This document shows, in pieces, positions 30,001-36,000 of a stretch of DNA of 36,038 bases. The stretch lies in the NCBI GenBank assembly GCA_042216335.1, contig JBDGTY010000023.1, positions 8,390 to 44,427 of the forward strand. The letters run 5' to 3'. How positions within the stretch are numbered: position 1 is the stretch's first letter; each line of letters opens with the position of its first letter. This DNA comes from Candidatus Nanohalobium sp. GTDB lineage: Archaea; Nanohalarchaeota; Nanosalinia; Nanosalinales; Nanosalinaceae. A program made the position numbers.

Positions 30001-33000
30001 GGAACTCGAAGGAGAAGTCACGTCCGGCCTGGGAAAAGGAAGGTACTACATGTCGAAGGAGGTCTACCAGGAAGTTTTCGACGAGAAACTGGGTTTCAGG
30101 CCTTTTCCCGGCACATTGAATATCAAGGTTGACGAGGAAAAGAGGGAAGAGTTTGAGGAAAGTTCGGAGACTATCGAGATCAGAGAAGTCTACGATGAAG
30201 ATGGGGAGAGACTGAGCGATGTGGACGTGATGCCATGCAGCATCGAAGGAGTTGAGTGCGGTTTGCTGAACCTCGAGATCACTGACCATGATTATTCTAT
30301 AGCGGAGGTCATCGCGCCGGTTGAGTTGAGGGAAAAGTTTAACCTTGTTGACGGGGATAATGTCGTACTGGAGAGATGAAAAGGAGCTACGTGGCTGCGT
30401 TGCTGATGGTTGCGGTACTGGCCTTCTCGCTCGGCACCCTGTATCCAGACAGCTCAAGTGACGGATTGAAGAGTATGGAGGGCAGCGGGTCGGCCACGGC
30501 CAAGATAGTAGCGGCCTCCAAGAACTCGAATACCGGTGCGATCGGCCAGGTCAAAGTCGAGATTATTCCTGGCGATGGAGACGTGCTGGTGGAGACTAAC
30601 CCTTTCATACAGACTGATACGCAGGTTTCAGCGACGAAGGCGAAGGAGGTCGCCGAAGAAGTCGTCGGGAAGTCGCTGGAAAACCATGACGTAATATACA
30701 CCATCAGAATGGATTCCACGGTAGTCGGCGGGCCTTCAGCTGGCGCAGCAATGACGCTGGCCACAATCGCCGCCATGACCGACAAAGAGATCAGGCAAGA
30801 GGCCGTAATTACTGGCACCATCACCGAGTCAGGCAGGATCGGAAAGGTCGGCAAGATACCGGTCAAGGCCTATGCCGCCGGAAAGGCTGGTATAGAGGAC
30901 TTCTACGTGCCGGAAGGCCAGTCAGTAAAGGTGAACTACGAGAAGGTTGTGGAGCGGGAGACCGACGGATTCTTCGTCTACCGCGACGTCGAGTACAGGC
31001 CCCGGAAGTTCAACATATCAGCCTATACAATGAGAAACTTCGGAATGAAGACAGAAGAGGTTGGGAGCATCTATCAGGCTATGGAGAAGATGTTGAAGTA
31101 GACAGAGAGGTATTCAAGGAATTTATCTCATCGGCGACACTTAATTTTTCGGTTCGATTTTTAACCGGGCAGAGTCAAACCTTTCTCCCAGGGGTCAACC
31201 TTGGCAGCAGAATCCGAATACAAAGGTCTCGAAATTCTGGCATCAAAGATAAAATCCGGCGAAATTACCGATTGCTCTGACGATGGTTTCACAGCTACTT
31301 TATACGATGGCGCTCAGAGCCTTGAAATAGTCTACGATGATGGCCGACTCATGCAGTACAGCAGATTCGGTTCAGGAAAAACTCTCGGCCAGTACGAATC
31401 AGCTCAGGAAGCAGCGGAAACAATCGAGGAATCCCTAGGCATCAATCTTTCGATAGAGGGGGAATTAACTTCTAGCGCATAGAATCCGGAAAACCGACAA
31501 TCTTAGTCTCGTACTCGCCGCCCTCTCCGGCCGTGTTAAAACCGTATTCCCGGGAAAGCTCTATCATTTCTTCTACTTTTTCCTCGTCCAGAGCTACTCC
31601 TTCCCATTCCTCGTTTAATCCGCGGGCCGCAACATCAGTGATCTCAACCTCGAAGCCTTCACGGATAAGCCACTTCATATACCTTTCCTGATCCTCCTGC
31701 CAGAGAGGGGCGAAAACCTTCAGACCGACTTCTTCAGCAACTTTTTCGACTCTATCCCTCTGGTAGGTCGAGGCCAGCGCACCGACGACGACGCCTTCCA
31801 CACCGTACTCTTCCCTAGCTCTTTCCAGTCCTTTCTTCAGGTCTTCAAGCTCTTCTTCTTTCTCACCTTCAGTCTCCTGGACCATCAGCGGAATATCAAG
31901 TTTTTCTGCCTGCCACTCCAGGTCTTTCTCCGACTTCTTCGAGTCGAACATGTAGGAATGCTCATTCTCCGAACGGAGTGTGAGAAGGCAAGAAATCTCA
32001 TTATTCCTTCTCTGCATCCTGTAGAGCACGGCGTTAGAGTCCTTTCCTCCGGAGGTAAGCGCGACCAGCTTCCTGTTGGGTTCGCTCCTGAAAGAATTCA
32101 GGTAACTTTGCTTGTGGTCAAAGCCGTTATCTTTTGCCAGTCTGTCGATGGCTTTGTCAAAATTGCTGCCGTACTGTGCCGCGGTCTTACCTCTCCACGC
32201 CACTTTCTCCGGTACACCCAGCTTTTCCGCCGCCTTTCTCAGGACGTATTTCCTGTAATCATCCTTCACCTTGTATTCCTCTGGTATAGTCAAGGCATTT
32301 TCCACTAATTCATGGTCGAGGAACGGAAGCCTTATCTCACGGCCGTTCCGGAAGCTGATGACGTTGTCCCGGTACAGGTCACCCTCAAATATTCTCCTCA
32401 GCCCGGAGAGACACTCCTTGTTAAGGTAGCCCTGCTGGCGATGGTATCCTGCGTAGAGTTGTTCGGAACCAAGGCCTGAGAAGACTACCTGGCCTTCATC
32501 TGCATGATCTTTCAGTGAGAAGTGAAATGGAAGTGCCACACCGTTCTTGACGACTGAGGTGCTTGAAATCCAGTCAGCTATCTTCGGGAGAGCTTCCTCT
32601 ACCTCCTCCAGATCGGCCTCATAGACCTCAAGCTTTATGCCCATTTCTTCAGCAACTTTTGCTGCCCAGTCCATATCCCTCGGGGCGTTAACATTACCGT
32701 GCTGGATTCCCGCGGTGTAGGCCGTGAAGTCCTTTCCAAGTTCCTGCAGGGCGGCCGCGATAAGCGTGGAGTCGACGCCACCCGAGAACAGGAGGCCGAC
32801 ATCACCCTTCGGAATACGCTTCTCAACCGCTTTCAGGAACTTTTCCCTTATCTCTTCCGCTGCCTGGTCCAGTTCCTTTTCTTCCTCCACGTTGATTTCG
32901 AAAAATTCTCTCTGTTCAAAGTCGAGCTTTTCCTTTTCGATATCGTATCTGAGTATCTGCCGAGGAATGAGTTCTCGGGCCTCCAACCCCTGTTTCTCCA

Positions 33001-36000
33001 GCGCCTGTTTCTCCGACGCGAAGACGAAGGGGTCCTCCGAATACCATATAGGGTTTACACCGAGAACATCTCGGGCCAGGGCTAACTCATTATTTTCCAA
33101 ATATGCGAACGCGTAGATGCCGTCAACCTTCTGCAGTCCCTCAACACCTTTCTCTTCAAGAAGTTTCAGCAATGTTTCCGCGTCGTTCCTGGTTTCCCAG
33201 CCGTATCTTTCATTAAGCTCCTCCCAGTTGTATATTTCGCAGTTGGCAGAGAGGACGCCTGATTCTTCAAGCGGCTGCTCCACTTCTCCGACCACCGAGT
33301 GGAGTACGTGGCCGAGAGAGAAGTTGTCAAAGTCTCTGGTCTGGCAGGAGCTGCCTCTGTGCTGCATCTCTTCTATCAGGTTCTCTACTTTTTCCTGTTC
33401 ACTGGCTCCTGCAATCCCGCACATGTTGAGGGAATTTGGGGTTAAGGCTTTTTGAGTTATAATTTTTTCTCAACTGAACTTGTCCGTGATCAATCTGACG
33501 GAAGCAGATATATCCGGCTCGCTGCAGAAAATCCAGGGAGAGCTAGGTTCACCGCTGGTGCATAGGTATGAAACCGTGTACAGCCCTGAACTAAGCGGAG
33601 AGGAAATCGAAACACGTTACGGAGAGATAGAGGGAGTCAACGATGTTTCGGTACGCGACATCTCAGAAGATTATCCTCGATACGAGGTGGAAGTATTCAT
33701 CGAGGAAAGAGAGGTAACTGAAAAAGACGACTATCAGCAGATACTCTCTCAAACACAGTAATCATCTTGGCCGAAATCAGGTTCCTGTGGTGTTATATAT
33801 AGCCCATATCCTGCAGTTCTTTCTTGGCTGCGGCTTTCTCCGCGTCTATACCGCCTTCTCCGTACTCTTCCGCTCCTCCAGCGTCTGCTTTTGATGTACA
33901 GCATTTTGAGTCGGTATGCCTGTAACCCCGGTTGTAGAGCTCAGGATACGAGACGGATTCAGCCTTGATGTATGCCCAGACGTTGGCTTCCTCCCAGTTT
34001 TTCAATGGGTTGACTCTCGTGTACTGGACAGGTTCTGTTTTCTCCTCAAATATCTCCGGTTCTGAGTCCTGCTGTGCAATCATGTCGGTTCCACGGATGC
34101 CCGTGATCATAACATCGAAGCCGTGTTCCTCAACGAAGTTCTTCAAAGGCTCTACCTTCAGGGCACCGCAGGATTCCGGAACGCCCCATTCCTCGGGGGA
34201 CATGTTCTGTCGCTGCACAGGCTCAAGTTTTGTCCTACCACAGTCATCGCAGACTATCTCCGTGTTATCTCTCTCGGCAGTTCTGCCACATTCGGGGCAG
34301 CTCCATTCACCGGAGTGTTTTCCATGATAACCTCTCGGATCATTTTCGTTTCTGATTATCTTTTCAAGAAAGTCTTCATGTTTTTCCACAATAACTTCAT
34401 TTCCTATGCCATGGAATGGGCCTACCGTATCAGCTCCCTGATCGCCGGCCGCCGCAAGGAACTCTTCACGGAACTCGTACATCTCCTCGAACTGGTTGCC
34501 CGTATCGATGATTCCAAAGGGAACAGGGGATACACCTTTCTCCTCCCCTATCTCGTAGAGAAGCAGGTCTGCGATGACCTGGGCCTCCTTGCCACCAGTC
34601 CAGAGAAATATAACATCTTCGTCCCGTTTTACAGCTTCCTGAAGCGCCGAAACCGCTTCACCAATCTTCTCCGTCTGCGAACCTTTAAGCGGCTTTGCGT
34701 TCCTCCAGTTGGTTCTTCCGTTCCAGGTCATTCGTCTTCCACCTCAAGCTTTTCCTTTACAAGTTCTATCTCTTTATCCGTCCAGCTCTTCACCTGCTGT
34801 TGCTGGAGCGGCGACTCAGTCACTTCAAGCCCTATAAAGTCAGTGATTATATCGTACATGTCCTCCGGTTTAATAGTATCCTTATCTGGAATGTTCAGCT
34901 CTTTCGTGGCTCCGAAGCATGCAGTTCTATCGTGCACACCGGTCCTGTAGTATCCCATACCGATCGGATTTTCGTGAAGATTACCGGAGACAAAAACCCC
35001 CTTTTTTCTATCCGGGATGATGTCCGGAACGGAGTCGTAGAAGTCGGCTTCCTCATCGTATAGTTCCCATTTGTACTTCACCGAACGGTACATACCCGTG
35101 GACATCAACTCCTCCCTGAACTTCTGCTCGTCGAATTCCTCTCTGTCACAGAGTAGAGTCAGACACGAGTCAAAAGGATCAGCGCATACGACCTTCGAGC
35201 TACTCTCATCGATCTTTACTCCGGGCTGCCCGAAAGTCACCTGGTTCTCCACTCTTTCATCAACAGGATGCTGCTCGCCCTGGCCCTGGTACTCTGTAAG
35301 ATCATCAATGAAATCATAGTCAACCTTGTACTCAAGCCAGCCGTTATCCTTCAACCACCTGTTAACCCTGAAAGTATCGGTAAGCTCGGTCTGGCCGTGA
35401 TCCGAGAAAAACATCAGATCGCCGTCGATCTGCTTGGAAATCCTTCTGCAAAGCCTTGCAACCTCAGATATCAGGTGCTGCCTGTACGTTTTCCCTTCCC
35501 TCGTCTCAGTATGCATGAAATGGCAATAACTATCGATTAGGCGGTATCCAAGGAAAGCAACATCAGGATCGACATGCCTTATAGCCTCCTTGAACTTGTT
35601 GAACTGCTGGATAGTCTGGTCATGGAACGAGGCATAGACACGGTCGGGATGGCTCTTGATCATATCGGCCTGAGGAGCAGGAACCTCAACCAGGTTAGAC
35701 ACCTCCTCAGGAACGGTCTGCTGCGCGCCCTGCAAAGCATCCCCGTTCAGCACCGACTCCTCATTAGCGGACTGGAAAGGAATACAGAAAGGCATACTCA
35801 TCGTCAAGACACTCATATCCTCTCTCACCGCCTGATCAATAAAGGTCGACTTCCTCGGCCGGGTAGTATCCTCGCCACCGTACTTTGAGACCTCCATCAT
35901 ACCGTTCTCCGCAGGGTTCAACCCAGTGTAGATACTGGACATCACTCTAGGTGTTACACGCGGAACATCCGCATCCATCTCACCCTGATGCACCTCATCC

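What a model noticed while it worked through the whole genome (the two positions that open the first line are those of the whole stretch)
31472..33424. Diphthine-ammonia ligase (Dph6) orthologue fused to an AsnB-type glutamine amidotransferase
One 650-aa protein joins an intact class II glutamine amidotransferase/AsnB module (N-terminal MCG, PP-loop SGGVDS) to the true Dph6 orthologue (PP-loop SGGKDS). The genome has no AsnRS and makes Asn-tRNA by transamidation. The fusion, conserved in most Nanosalinaceae, therefore most likely supplies glutamine-derived ammonia for the last step of diphthamide synthesis.
Evidence so far: - Domains are shown in call 18 and the motifs in call 79. - TIGR03679 Dph6_archaeal scores 226.9 against a cut-off of 197.3 for the C-terminal part. 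The stand-alone paralogue at C5:19001-19669 scores 96.1. asn_synth_AEB scores 246.1 against a cut-off of 267.1. - Full-length fused frames occur in 18 of 30 relatives, plus 3 where the gene shows as two matches. - The best 120 of 1,154 homologues are all fused, and the named ones are nanohaloarchaea. - No AsnRS scores over the cut-off. ND-AspRS and GatCAB are present. - 'diphthamide' and 'asparagine synth' are absent from the three comparative papers searched.
(Added by a program. Inside this text positions count along the whole contig: contig position 8,390 is position 1 of the stretch shown here. "Call 12" and the like, gene names such as g00115 and contig names such as C1 are that model's own, and its searches are not shown. 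The text may have been shortened before it was handed on; [...] marks where a part breaks off. The agent that wrote the report below was given it as the finding of a first reader that could run no searches.)

Follow-up and report, generated by a model that had tools for sequence, protein, structure and literature searches.

The report
AsnB-like amidotransferase fused to Dph6
One gene joins the enzyme that finishes the diphthamide modification of elongation factor 2 to an altered asparagine-synthetase-like module, a fusion first described in 2012 and still untested at the bench.

Summary
Window 31472..33424(-) encodes a 650-aa protein: class II glutaminase, AsnB-type PP-loop domain and an archaeal Dph6 domain. 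All quoted scores reproduce.

The idea is not new. De Crecy-Lagard et al. 2012 (PMC3541065) describe this fusion, name a nanohaloarchaeon, and propose that the glutaminase supplies NH3.

The Dph6 module is the true orthologue: it has the EGGEYE motif and all nine signature residues. Dph2, Dph5 and an EF-2 with the target loop are present.

The AsnB-like module is not a canonical asparagine synthetase:
- It scores below the cut-off.
- Leu replaces the catalytic Glu348.
- Leu replaces the glutamine-binding Arg49.
- The ATP-site residues are kept.

The fusion is far wider than Nanosalinaceae. It occurs in Woese-/Nanoarchaeota, Iainarchaeota, Altiarchaeota and Methanolobus.

Recurrent glutaminase-less forms (AS-like + Dph6) keep the AS-like ATP site. 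That domain is therefore more than a passive ammonia pipe.

One sister family lacks Dph2, Dph6 and the AsnB-like module together.

Best reading (about 0.5): an amide-nitrogen-fed diphthamide synthetase. Nothing is shown biochemically. Novelty: already known. Interest is moderate.

The parts
31472..33424 (-). whole gene, 650 codons plus stop (stop at 31472-31474)
32900..33424 (-). class II (Ntn) glutaminase domain, residues 1-175. Cys2 follows the start Met. NCEIYN is at 61-66 and Asp81 is kept. Leu41 stands where E. coli AsnB has Arg49.
   Evidence: Pfam GATase_7/GATase_6; alignment to 1ct9; residue table
33302..33304 (-). Leu41 codon, the position of the glutamine alpha-carboxylate-binding Arg49 of AsnB (Arg-48 of human ASNS)
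   Evidence: role of the Arg from PMC6748925 passages
32090..32872 (-). AsnB-type PP-loop (ATP pyrophosphatase) domain, residues 185-445
   Evidence: Pfam Asn_synthase; Foldseek to 1ct9/6gq3, TMt 0.72-0.77
32768..32785 (-). PP-loop 1, SGGVDS, residues 214-219
   Evidence: S/G/G/D/S kept in 138-141 of 151 rows
32462..32479 (-). SGLGSE, residues 316-321, the counterpart of AsnB SGEGSD. Leu318 replaces the catalytic Glu348. Glu321 stands at Asp351.
   Evidence: role of the Glu and Asp from PMC6748925 passages
32165..32188 (-). KTAAQYGS, residues 413-420. Lys413 is E. coli Lys449. The loop is invariant or nearly so in fused and in glutaminase-less forms.
31475..32071 (-). Dph6 (diphthine--ammonia ligase) domain, residues 452-650. 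It matches profile positions 1-191 of 218.
   Evidence: TIGR03679 226.9 against 197.3; 3rjz/2d13 at E 1e-45; Foldseek TMt 0.80
32036..32053 (-). PP-loop 2, SGGKDS, residues 458-463
   Evidence: G460, K461 and D462 are invariant in 36 fused sequences
31508..31525 (-). EGGEYE, residues 634-639, the Dph6-type EGG(D/E)xE motif
   Evidence: motif meaning from PMC3585130 passages; invariant G633, E634, G635, G636, E639

Best explanation
The gene encodes the organism's diphthamide synthetase in a three-domain form.

The C-terminal Dph6 domain adenylates the carboxylate of diphthine on EF-2 and amidates it.

The N-terminal AsnB-like module no longer makes asparagine. It serves the Dph6 reaction as a built-in nitrogen supply. 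The Cys nucleophile hydrolyses glutamine, or a related amide. The ammonia passes through the ATP-binding AS-like domain, which is rigidly docked to Dph6, and reaches the diphthine adenylate.

Shown here:
- the domain identities;
- the Dph6 signature residues;
- the presence of the pathway and of the target loop;
- loss of the canonical Asp-site and Arg49 residues with the ATP site retained;
- near-obligate fusion of this AsnB-like clade to Dph6.

Inferred: glutaminase activity, any ammonia transfer between domains, and what the AS-like ATP site does.
For: (1) The D module is Dph6.
- TIGR03679 scores 226.9 against 197.3.
- In the alignment to PF0828, all nine residues that PMC3541065 lists as conserved in Dph6 orthologues are kept: S44, Y45, E78, Y103, Q104, A149, E183, E186, E188 (list).
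- The EGGEYE motif is present. In yeast, G216N plus E220A in this motif kills Dph6 (PMC3585130 passages).
- Foldseek gives TMt 0.80 to PH1257/PF0828.

(2) The pathway is present: Dph2, Dph5, and EF-2 with the loop HEDAIHRG on the same contig.

(3) The only other DUF71 gene carries ENGEFH and lacks Y103/Q104.

(4) The AS-like module is not a canonical AsnB.
- It scores 246.1 against a cut-off of 267.1.
- At Glu348, Leu stands in 99 of 151 rows and Glu is not among the six commonest letters.
- At Arg49, Leu stands in 100 rows and Arg in 5.
- In 10 fused proteins read from named genomes, position 348 is L, F, M, N, V or S, and position 376 is G, D, Y, S or N.
- The bacterial AsnBs in the same alignment keep R49, E/D348 and Arg324 in Met=0 numbering.

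(5) Free Asn has no route into translation here. There is no AsnRS, and ND-AspRS is present. This is also the only Asn_synthase domain in the genome.

(6) Family f3 of the same order lacks all parts together:
- Dph2 in 0 of 10 genomes;
- PF01902 in 0 of 5;
- any match to the whole protein in 0 of 7;
- a real Asn_synthase domain in 0 of 5.

(7) In 301 genomes of another DPANN phylum, this AsnB-like clade sits in one frame with Dph6 in about 110 cases: about 95 full fusions and about 15 without glutaminase. It stands apart in about 11 (my count of the listed rows).

(8) All fused rows fall in one clade of the AS-domain tree (support 87, FastTree).

(9) AlphaFold2 gives pTM 0.91 and mean pLDDT 92.0 for the whole protein.

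(10) Complex prediction, residues 1-445 against 452-650, returned the verdict 'weak support'.
- Scores were 0.53, 0.52 and 0.55; the best of 3 controls was 0.00.
- The mark was reached by 116 of 157 solved complexes and 2 of 215 mismatches.
- At 0.60 or under it was reached by only 18 of the 157 solved complexes and by both passing mismatches.
- The runs agree in at least 88% of contacts, and the partner's pLDDT is at least 79.
Against: (1) Glutaminase-less AS-like+Dph6 proteins are real and recurrent.
- Six complete frames were found in metagenome loci. No glutaminase ORF lies anywhere in those loci, including 4,976 bases upstream in L094 and L099.
- About 15 of 301 genomes carry the form.
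- The label changes at least 7 times on the tree.
- In 14 such cluster representatives the glutaminase-facing residues relax: E363 reads E6 K4 D2 F1, and R365 reads R5 A2 L2 I2. In fused forms they are kept in 46/49 and 48/49.
- The ATP-site residues stay invariant in 14 of 14: PP-loop, K392, R396, Q417, Y418, G419.
- The AS-like domain therefore has an ATP-dependent role that does not need a glutaminase, which a passive conduit would not.

(2) Arg49, which binds the substrate carboxylate in class II amidotransferases, is missing. Glutamine use is therefore not assured.

(3) Dph6 alone is the commonest state in the other phylum. It is also the state in families f2 and f5. The module is an accessory at most.

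(4) AsnRS is over the cut-off in 2 of 5 other fusion-bearing genomes.

(5) No dph gene or EF-2 gene lies next to the fusion in 13 loci, 106 ORFs scanned.

(6) The co-loss in f3 is one clade, so one event.

(7) No coordinates or error maps of the models could be inspected, so no tunnel was seen.

(8) There is no biochemistry for any archaeal Dph6. PMC8305020 says the assignment awaits confirmation.
Confidence: 0.5

Rival explanations
1. Bifunctional enzyme with two unrelated reactions. The AsnB-like module is a self-contained amidotransferase whose glutaminase feeds its own PP-loop site, as in every studied AsnB relative. Its product could be asparagine made by an archaeal variant of the active site, or an unknown amidated product. 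Dph6 simply rides on the same polypeptide and takes free ammonium.
For: - Both PP-loops and the AsnB ATP-site residues (S346, G347, Y357, D384, R387, K429, K449 equivalents) are conserved.
- The residue at Asp351, which pairs with the substrate amino group in human ASNS, is kept as D or E.
- Glutaminase-less forms keep the AS-like ATP site. This fits an ammonia-using synthetase.
- Stand-alone archaeal relatives with Gln at position 348 pass the asn_synth_AEB cut-off: 333.4, 313.4 and 273.8 against 267.1.
- PMC10266531 lists the nanohaloarchaeal gene as asparagine synthase AsnB.
- Reviewer Aravind raised this possibility in 2012.
Against: - There is no AsnRS here, so free Asn cannot enter translation.
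- The catalytic Glu and the presumed Asp alpha-carboxylate binders are gone, and their positions vary among fused proteins.
- The module disappears together with Dph2 and Dph6 in family f3.
- This clade is rarely found apart from Dph6.
Confidence: 0.3
2. Two-PP-loop diphthamide synthetase. The AS-like domain is an obligate ATP-dependent partner of Dph6 that acts on EF-2 itself, for instance by binding or activating the diphthine side chain or by docking EF-2. The glutaminase is an optional add-on.
For: - AS-like+Dph6 persists without a glutaminase in many lineages, with the ATP site intact.
- AlphaFold2 gives pTM 0.86 for such a two-domain protein.
- The residues lost are those that, from recall, bind the alpha-carboxylate of Asp, while the acid facing the substrate's cationic group is kept. 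Diphthine has a cation and only one carboxylate.
Against: - Dph6 alone suffices in most archaea sampled, and human DPH6, which lacks extra domains, restores diphthamide synthesis in a yeast dph6 mutant (PMC3585130 passages).
- In at least two genomes (G310, G343) the GAT+AS and Dph6 parts lie on different contigs.
- There is no direct evidence of any contact with EF-2.
Confidence: 0.15
3. Assembly or gene-calling artefact, or a decaying gene.
For: None found. A few relatives show the gene in two pieces or with one internal stop: G007, G024 and G025.
Against: - A single open frame is seen in 27 of 41 relatives, in 15 of 80 named genome loci, and in 56 of the 150 listed 50%-identity cluster representatives.
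- Catalytic motifs are conserved in all three domains.
Confidence: 0.01

Closest known systems
AsnB(GAT-II + Asn_Synthase_B_C)-DUF71 fusion of de Crecy-Lagard et al. 2012 (PMC3541065; Methanohalophilus mahii, Methanosalsum zhilinae, 'Ca. Nanosalinarum sp. J07AB56')
   Same: Same three-domain order, same lineage type (a nanohaloarchaeon is named), and the same proposed role of the glutaminase as NH3 source (passages read).
   Different: Nothing essential differs; this is another member. Added here:
- the residue-level state of the AsnB-like module;
- the breadth in DPANN;
- the glutaminase-less forms;
- the co-loss with Dph2.
Stand-alone archaeal Dph6 (PF0828, PDB 3rjz/3rk0/3rk1; PH1257, PDB 2d13)
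   Same: The match is E 1e-45 and about 45% identical over residues 454-646. The PP-loop, EGGExE and all nine signature residues are kept. Foldseek gives TMt 0.80 and rmsd 1.3-1.8 A.
   Different: It carries 450 extra N-terminal residues. It ends at profile position 191 of 218, so the last part of the stand-alone protein is missing.
Glutamine-dependent asparagine synthetase (E. coli AsnB, PDB 1ct9; human ASNS, PDB 6gq3/8sue)
   Same: Same two-domain fold (TMt 0.72-0.77). Kept are Cys1, Asn74, Glu76, Asp98, the PP-loop, Asp384, Arg387, Lys429 and Lys449.
   Different: - Arg49 is Leu, Gly75 is Cys and Glu348 is Leu.
- Asp351 is Glu.
- The positions of Thr322, Arg325 and Lys376 are Lys/Val, Gly and Gly.
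- The synthetase domain is about 110 residues shorter.
- The score is under the asn_synth_AEB cut-off.
Yeast Dph6 (YLR143W), with two C-terminal YjgF/RidA-like domains
   Same: A Dph6 core fused to a module that authors suspect generates ammonia (PMC3541065; PMC3585130).
   Different: The extra module is unrelated (RidA-like, C-terminal). It is essential in yeast by deletion tests. No such test exists here.
Other PP-loop synthetases fused to a glutaminase (glutamine-dependent NAD synthetase; GAT-QueC of Crenarchaeota)
   Same: Same logic: an ATP-pyrophosphatase that amidates an adenylated substrate gains a fused glutaminase. The NAD synthetase case rests on the start of the abstract of PMC3376133 in the listing. 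GAT-QueC is recalled and comes from no call.
   Different: Those have one PP-loop domain. Here a second, AsnB-type PP-loop domain sits between the glutaminase and the presumed acceptor domain.

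Membership tests
Dph6, diphthine--ammonia ligase (TIGR03679; DUF71 cluster 1) | Score over the curated equivalog cut-off | tested here: met
   226.9 against 197.3 for residues 454-646
Dph6, diphthine--ammonia ligase (TIGR03679; DUF71 cluster 1) | PP-loop SGGKDS and the EGG(D/E)xE motif, not ENGE(F/Y)H | tested here: met
   SGGKDS at 458-463 and EGGEYE at 634-639. 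Motif definition from PMC3585130 passages. The paralogue has ENGEFH.
Dph6, diphthine--ammonia ligase (TIGR03679; DUF71 cluster 1) | The nine residues conserved among Dph6 orthologues (PF0828 S44, Y45, E78, Y103, Q104, A149, E183, E186, E188) | tested here: met
   All nine are identical in the HMMER alignment to 3rjz. List from PMC3541065.
Dph6, diphthine--ammonia ligase (TIGR03679; DUF71 cluster 1) | Rest of the pathway and the target present in the genome | tested here: met
   Dph2 at 196.1 bits. Dph5 at 139.2 bits, cut by a contig end. EF-2 with the loop HEDAIHRG (the loop motif is recalled).
Dph6, diphthine--ammonia ligase (TIGR03679; DUF71 cluster 1) | Full-length domain | tested here: inconclusive
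   The match covers profile positions 1-191 of 218, and the protein ends there. Longer fused relatives of 680-710 aa extend further.
Dph6, diphthine--ammonia ligase (TIGR03679; DUF71 cluster 1) | ATP-dependent amidation of diphthine on EF-2 | not testable with these tools
The archaeal assignment awaits confirmation (PMC8305020 passages).
Asparagine synthetase B, glutamine-hydrolysing (TIGR01536) | Score over the curated equivalog cut-off | tested here: not met
   246.1 against 267.1
Asparagine synthetase B, glutamine-hydrolysing (TIGR01536) | N-terminal Cys nucleophile and PP-loop SGGxDS | tested here: met
   MCG at 1-3 and SGGVDS at 214-219
Asparagine synthetase B, glutamine-hydrolysing (TIGR01536) | Glutamine-binding network Arg49, Asn74, Gly75, Glu76, Asp98 (human Arg-48 to Asp-96) | tested here: not met
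   Asn, Glu and Asp are kept. Arg49 is Leu and Gly75 is Cys. Network from PMC6748925.
Asparagine synthetase B, glutamine-hydrolysing (TIGR01536) | Catalytic Glu348 (human Glu-364) in SGEGSDE | tested here: not met
   The protein has SGLGSE. Leu stands in 99 of 151 family rows. The Glu is 'required for catalytic activity' (PMC6748925).
Asparagine synthetase B, glutamine-hydrolysing (TIGR01536) | Thr322, Arg325 and Lys376 of E. coli AsnB (roles recalled, from no call) | tested here: not met
   The aligned residues are V/K, G and G. The bacterial AsnBs in the same alignment keep the Arg.
Asparagine synthetase B, glutamine-hydrolysing (TIGR01536) | A use for free asparagine in translation (AsnRS) | tested here: not met
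   No AsnRS is over the cut-off. ND-AspRS and GatB are present.
Asparagine synthetase B, glutamine-hydrolysing (TIGR01536) | Two-domain AsnB fold | tested here: met
   Foldseek to 1ct9, 6gq3 and 8sue: TMt 0.72-0.77 over about 480-500 columns
AsnB-DUF71 fusion family (de Crecy-Lagard et al. 2012) | GAT-II, then the Asn_synthase PP-loop, then DUF71 in one polypeptide | tested here: met

The most novel reading that the evidence does not exclude
The AsnB-like PP-loop domain is not an asparagine synthetase at all. It is an ATP-dependent partner of Dph6 that works on EF-2/diphthine. The fused proteins, with or without a glutaminase, would then be a distinct two-PP-loop class of diphthamide synthetase, widespread in DPANN archaea. 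In that class the glutaminase is a removable nitrogen-supply module.
Probability: 0.2. Interest if true: 0.6.

Novelty: already known. Interest (0 to 1): 0.35.

Why it matters
The last step of diphthamide synthesis needs ammonia, and its source in cells is unsettled. Yeast Dph6 needs RidA-like domains of unknown role, and archaeal Dph6 has never been assayed.

This fusion is the clearest natural hint that the step can be fed from glutamine. A 2012 reviewer asked which of the two PP-loop domains uses the ammonia, and the question is still open.

Three observations made here turn it into a bench experiment with clear mutants:
- the altered Asp site;
- the glutaminase-less natural variants with an intact AS-like ATP site;
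- the loss of the whole gene together with Dph2 in one family.

There is also a practical point. Genome papers on nanohaloarchaea count this gene as asparagine biosynthesis (PMC10266531), which is probably wrong in an organism without AsnRS.

Tried and rejected
- **Gene neighbourhood.** 106 ORFs around 13 fused loci were scanned against Pfam. No dph2, dph5 or EF-2 was found. Only a DRG-type GTPase (4 loci), DUF456 (nanohaloarchaea) and a cytidylyltransferase-like gene (2 loci) recur. This is not informative.
- **Stand-alone short archaeal AsnB-like genes.** Methanobacteriaceae, Nitrososphaera (x4) and Archaeoglobaceae loci have no Dph6 within the flanks. Neighbourhood gives no link there. These genes also carry Gln, not Leu, at position 348.
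- **Link between the fusion and absence of AsnRS.** This is rejected as a rule: AsnRS is over the cut-off in 2 of 5 other fusion-bearing genomes.
- **A separately encoded glutaminase for the glutaminase-less forms.** In 5 such genomes GATase_7 hits lie in frames of 600-633 aa, 475 aa, 289 aa and 183 aa (weak). One genome, G312, has none. No consistent partner was found, and genome completeness is unknown.
- **First alignment for the genome scan.** It was too diverse, so a smaller one was used.
- **Literature after 2012 on the fusion.** Searches were read as listings only. They turned up nothing beyond the 2012 paper and citations of it. Subscription journals are not covered.
- **Supplementary figures of PMC3541065.** The family trees and the Fig. 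2C accessions were not opened.

Full report
**1. What is there**

Window 31472..33424 on the minus strand is one open frame of 650 codons. It begins MCGIAG, with a stop five codons upstream of the start.

Pfam finds three domains:
- a class II glutamine amidotransferase domain (GATase_7, 49-143);
- an Asn_synthase PP-loop domain (191-331 plus a second stretch);
- Diphthami_syn_2 (452-643, 176.1 bits).

NCBIfam gives Dph6_archaeal 226.9 against a cut-off of 197.3, and asn_synth_AEB 246.1 against 267.1.

The two PP-loops are SGGVDS (214-219) and SGGKDS (458-463).

**2. The Dph6 half**

Residues 454-646 align to the Pyrococcus proteins PF0828 (3rjz) and PH1257 (2d13) at E about 1e-45.

De Crecy-Lagard et al. 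2012 list nine residues as conserved among Dph6 orthologues: S44, Y45, E78, Y103, Q104, A149, E183, E186 and E188 of PF0828 (passages). All nine are identical in that alignment.

The protein has EGGEYE (634-639). Uthman et al. 2013 state that Dph6-type DUF71 proteins have EGG(D/E)xE, that a related group has ENGE(F/Y)H instead, and that G216N plus E220A inactivates yeast Dph6 (passages).

The genome's only other DUF71 gene is C5:19001-19669, 222 aa. It differs in four ways:
- it carries ENGEFH;
- it lacks the YQR and SY signatures;
- it scores 96.1 on Dph6_archaeal;
- it scores 65.9 on PAB0415_fam, far below that model's cut-off of 250.

The rest of the pathway is present:
- Dph2;
- Dph5, cut by a contig end;
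- an EF-2 with the loop HEDAIHRG, 16 kb away on the same contig (the loop motif is from recall).

The fused C-terminal module is therefore the organism's Dph6. One oddity remains: the match stops at profile position 191 of 218, and the protein ends there.

**3. The AsnB-like half**

By fold it is an AsnB. Foldseek gives TMt 0.72-0.77 to E. coli AsnB and human ASNS over about 480-500 columns. No solved chain covers all three domains; the best TM-score normalised by query length is 0.60.

By residues it is not a canonical one. I aligned it with E. coli AsnB, translated from NC_000913.3, and with the 150 best cluster representatives.

| E. coli AsnB position | State in this protein and its family |
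|---|---|
| Cys1, Asn74, Glu76, Asp98 | kept |
| PP-loop, Ser346, Gly347, Tyr357 | kept |
| Asp384, Arg387, Lys429, Lys449 | kept |
| Arg49 | Leu (100 rows Leu, 5 Arg, 34 gaps, of 151) |
| Gly75 | Cys |
| Glu348 | Leu (99 Leu, 10 Ile, 8 Val; Glu not among the six commonest) |
| Lys376 | mostly Gly |

The human ASNS structure paper (passages) gives the roles:
[quoted passage not shown] - Glu-364 contacts its alpha-carboxylate and 'is required for catalytic activity'.
- Lys-466 is essential.

I mapped human numbers to E. coli numbers from the alignments. The roles of Thr322, Arg325 and Lys376 are from recall.

A more careful alignment of 37 sequences shows a gradient:
- Bacterial AsnBs keep Arg49, the Arg of TTIR and Glu/Asp348.
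- Stand-alone archaeal short forms (Methanobacteriaceae, Nitrososphaera, Archaeoglobaceae) have Gln348 and no such Arg, yet still pass the asn_synth_AEB cut-off with 333.4, 313.4 and 273.8.
- The fused clade has Leu, Phe, Met, Asn, Val or Ser at 348, and Gly, Asp, Tyr, Ser or Asn at 376.

In the fused clade, then, the ATP side of the pocket is under constraint. The positions that hold aspartate in AsnB are changed and variable.

**4. Already in print**

De Crecy-Lagard et al. [quoted passage not shown] It describes an AsnB domain (GAT-II plus Asn_Synthase_B_C) at the N-terminus of DUF71 in Methanohalophilus mahii, Methanosalsum zhilinae and 'Candidatus Nanosalinarum sp. J07AB56'. [quoted passage not shown]

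Reviewer L. Aravind asked which PP-loop uses the ammonia and what the Asn-synthetase-like domain catalyses (passages).

Three further searches (listings only) found no later experimental work in the held library. PMC8305020 says in 2021 that the archaeal dph6 assignment awaits confirmation. A 2023 nanohaloarchaeal genome paper lists the gene as 'asparagine synthase AsnB' among the few amino-acid biosynthesis genes (PMC10266531).

**5. Distribution**

*Protein searches.* The word-index search returned 1,659 hits. All 120 listed are fused, at 69-85% identity, and the named ones are nanohaloarchaea. The exhaustive search of 50%-identity representatives gave 581 hits at E up to 1e-30. I classed the 150 listed by coverage of the three modules:

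| Class | Rows of 150 |
|---|---|
| Full fusions | 56 |
| AS-like+Dph6 without a glutaminase | 18 |
| Glutaminase+AS-like only | 55 |
| Other fragments | 21 |

Some of the glutaminase+AS-like rows are pieces of fusions; P0165 is labelled 'partial'.

*Named genomes.* Among the 80 loci kept from named species genomes, 15 hold the whole fusion in one frame:
- Nanosalina, two loci;
- the archaeon LFW-252_1;
- Iainarchaeum, two loci;
- an Altiarchaeota MAG;
- eight Nanoarchaeota, Woesearchaeota or unclassified archaeal MAGs;
- Methanolobus.

A sixteenth, from a Methanosarcinales MAG, is cut by a contig end.

*Relatives of the window's genome.* In 41 genomes including its own:
- A single frame covers the whole query in 27.
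- Family f1 has a match in 24 of 24.
- Family f4 has it fused in 4 of 7, plus one partial.
- Families f2 and f5 have Dph6 alone.
- Family f3 has nothing in 7 of 7.

*Another DPANN phylum.* In 301 genomes of the phylum of the Woesearchaeota genome, 297 match. By my count of the listed rows:
- about 95 are full fusions;
- about 15 are glutaminase-less frames of 477-564 aa;
- about 11 have the glutaminase+AS-like part alone, with Dph6 on another contig in at least G310 and G343;
- the rest have a Dph6 of about 230 aa alone.

A further 530 matches were not listed, so these counts are approximate.

*Tree.* A FastTree of the AS-like domain has 101 rows; rows without a match to my domain HMM were left out.
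- All archaeal short forms are separated from the bacterial AsnBs (support 100).
- The Gln348 stand-alone group is basal.
- Every fused and glutaminase-less row falls in one clade (support 87, not starred).

This fits one origin of the fusion followed by repeated loss of the glutaminase. The label needs at least 7 changes, though some may be gene-call artefacts.

**6. Glutaminase-less forms are real and informative**

A metagenome scan used one such protein, P0193, as query. My HMMs then found six complete frames that start at the AS-like domain: L094, L096, L097, L098, L099 and L109. No glutaminase ORF lies anywhere in those loci. L094 and L099 each have 4,976 bases upstream. L104 and L105 keep only a remnant of about 65 residues.

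I compared 14 such cluster representatives with 49 fused ones. I had dropped 4 short fragments from the 18 glutaminase-less rows and 7 odd-length rows from the 56 fused rows.

| Residues | Fused (n = 49) | Glutaminase-less (n = 14) |
|---|---|---|
| E363 (corresponds, by my mapping, to human Glu-414, near the glutamine pocket) | E in 46 | E6 K4 D2 F1 |
| R365 (corresponds, by my mapping, to human Arg-416) | R in 48 | R5 A2 L2 I2 |
| K293 | K in 45 | K in 5 |
| PP-loop, K392, R396, Q417, Y418, G419 | kept | kept in 14 of 14 |

Five genomes with this form have no consistent separate glutaminase, and one has none at all.

The pattern says two things:
- These proteins truly work without a glutaminase.
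- The AS-like domain keeps an ATP-dependent function of its own while still fused to Dph6.

**7. Co-loss**

All 70 genomes held for the phylum were searched for Dph2:

| Family | Genomes with Dph2 |
|---|---|
| f1 | 46 of 49 |
| f2 | 1 of 1 |
| f5 | 1 of 1 |
| f4 | 7 of 8 |
| f3 | 0 of 10 (five genera, 80-93% complete) |

Five f3 genomes also lack any PF01902 match. Their only Asn_synthase hits are short PP-loop stretches in ORFs of about 300 aa, in 2 of the 5.

Where diphthamide synthesis is gone, the AsnB-like module is gone too. This is a single clade, so one event. It still argues that the module has no independently essential job.

**8. Predicted structure**

- AlphaFold2 with 36 fused sequences gives mean pLDDT 92.0 and pTM 0.91, with no segment under 50.
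- The glutaminase-less P0193 with 18 sequences gives mean pLDDT 92.9 and pTM 0.86.

Such pTM values suggest that the domains are placed as one body. I could not see error maps or coordinates.

Complex prediction with residues 1-445 against 452-650 returned the verdict 'weak support':
- Scores were 0.53, 0.52 and 0.55, and the best of 3 controls was 0.00.
- The mark was reached by 116 of 157 solved complexes and 2 of 215 mismatches.
- At 0.60 or under it was reached by only 18 of the 157 solved complexes and by both passing mismatches.
- The runs agree in at least 88% of contacts, and the partner's pLDDT is at least 79.

The linker between the AS-like and Dph6 domains is only about six residues.

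**9. Reading**

The Dph6 assignment is firm. For the N-terminal module, the reading that fits the most evidence is that it serves the diphthine amidation rather than asparagine synthesis. The grounds are:
- no AsnRS in this genome, with ND-AspRS and GatB present;
- the altered Asp site;
- the near-obligate fusion to Dph6;
- the co-loss with Dph2;
- the compact predicted fold.

The simple picture of 'a glutaminase that feeds Dph6, with the middle domain as a pipe' does not explain the glutaminase-less forms with an intact ATP site. The missing Arg49 also leaves the amide donor open.

I put about 0.5 on a nitrogen-supplying accessory to Dph6. I put 0.3 on an independent second amidation, whether asparagine or something unknown. 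I put 0.15 on a true two-PP-loop synthetase in which the AS-like domain acts on EF-2. AsnRS is present in 2 of 5 other fusion-bearing genomes, so the 'no AsnRS' argument is local, not general.

**10. Verdict**

The finding is real and correctly described. The Dph6 call is right. The proposed mechanism is reasonable but unproven, and it was published in 2012.

What is added here:
- the residue-level evidence that the AsnB-like module is not a canonical asparagine synthetase;
- the breadth of the fusion in DPANN archaea;
- the recurrent glutaminase-less variants;
- a nanohaloarchaeal family without the diphthamide genes.

Interest is moderate. The open question is old, narrow and now easy to test.

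Noticed in passing
genomes G031, G034, G036, G038, G040, G042, G044, G346-G348 (family f3 of the window's order): A whole family of the nanohaloarchaeal order seems to lack diphthamide synthesis. Dph2 is in 0 of 10 genomes (80-93% complete, five genera), PF01902 in 0 of 5, and the fused protein matches in 0 of 7. The passages read from Narrowe et al. 2018 name Korarchaeota, Geoarchaea and most Asgard archaea as lacking dph genes, and the word 'nanohalo' does not occur in that paper.
   Followed up: partly
L094:4977-6419, L096:1840-3327, L097:3264-4730, L098:518-1996, L099:4977-6428, L109:117-1634; also about 15 of 301 genomes: Natural proteins made of the AsnB-like PP-loop domain plus Dph6 with no glutaminase domain. 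The glutaminase-facing residues are relaxed and the ATP-site residues are intact. L104 and L105 keep only a glutaminase remnant of about 65 residues.
   Followed up: yes
own genome C5:19001-19669 (L002:1465-2133, minus strand): The second DUF71 gene (222 aa, ENGEFH motif, under every NCBIfam cut-off) lies between a GatC-like ORF (L002:370-849; judged by eye, not scanned) and gatB (C5:22597). Its role is unknown, in a genome where I did not look for B12 genes.
   Followed up: partly
window 33793-34731 (-): A 312-aa PAPS_reduct-type PP-loop protein with a Cys-rich insert (CPECG...CDDCG) lies directly upstream on the same strand, and a Phosphodiest-family gene follows at 34728-35993. It is another adenine-nucleotide alpha-hydrolase next to the two in the fusion. 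It was not among the neighbours annotated by Pfam in the two Nanosalina loci.
   Followed up: partly
own genome C16:57451-59631 (+), outside the window: EF-2 (727-aa frame) with the diphthamide loop HEDAIHRGPSQ lies on the same contig, about 16 kb from the fusion gene.
   Followed up: no
window 31475-32071 (-): The nanohaloarchaeal Dph6 module ends at profile position 191 of 218. It lacks the C-terminal stretch present in stand-alone Dph6 and in the longer fused proteins of other DPANN lineages (680-710 aa).
   Followed up: no
window 29999-30379 (+); L016:7092-7742: A CTP-dependent riboflavin kinase gene lies near the fusion both here and in an Iainarchaeum locus. Cytidylyltransferase-like genes directly follow the fusion in two Nanoarchaeota/Woesearchaeota loci (L018, L020). 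This is probably coincidence.
   Followed up: no
G349, G030, G020: Dph2 appears as two separate pieces in some relatives, as already reported for DPANN archaea by Narrowe et al. 2018.
   Followed up: no
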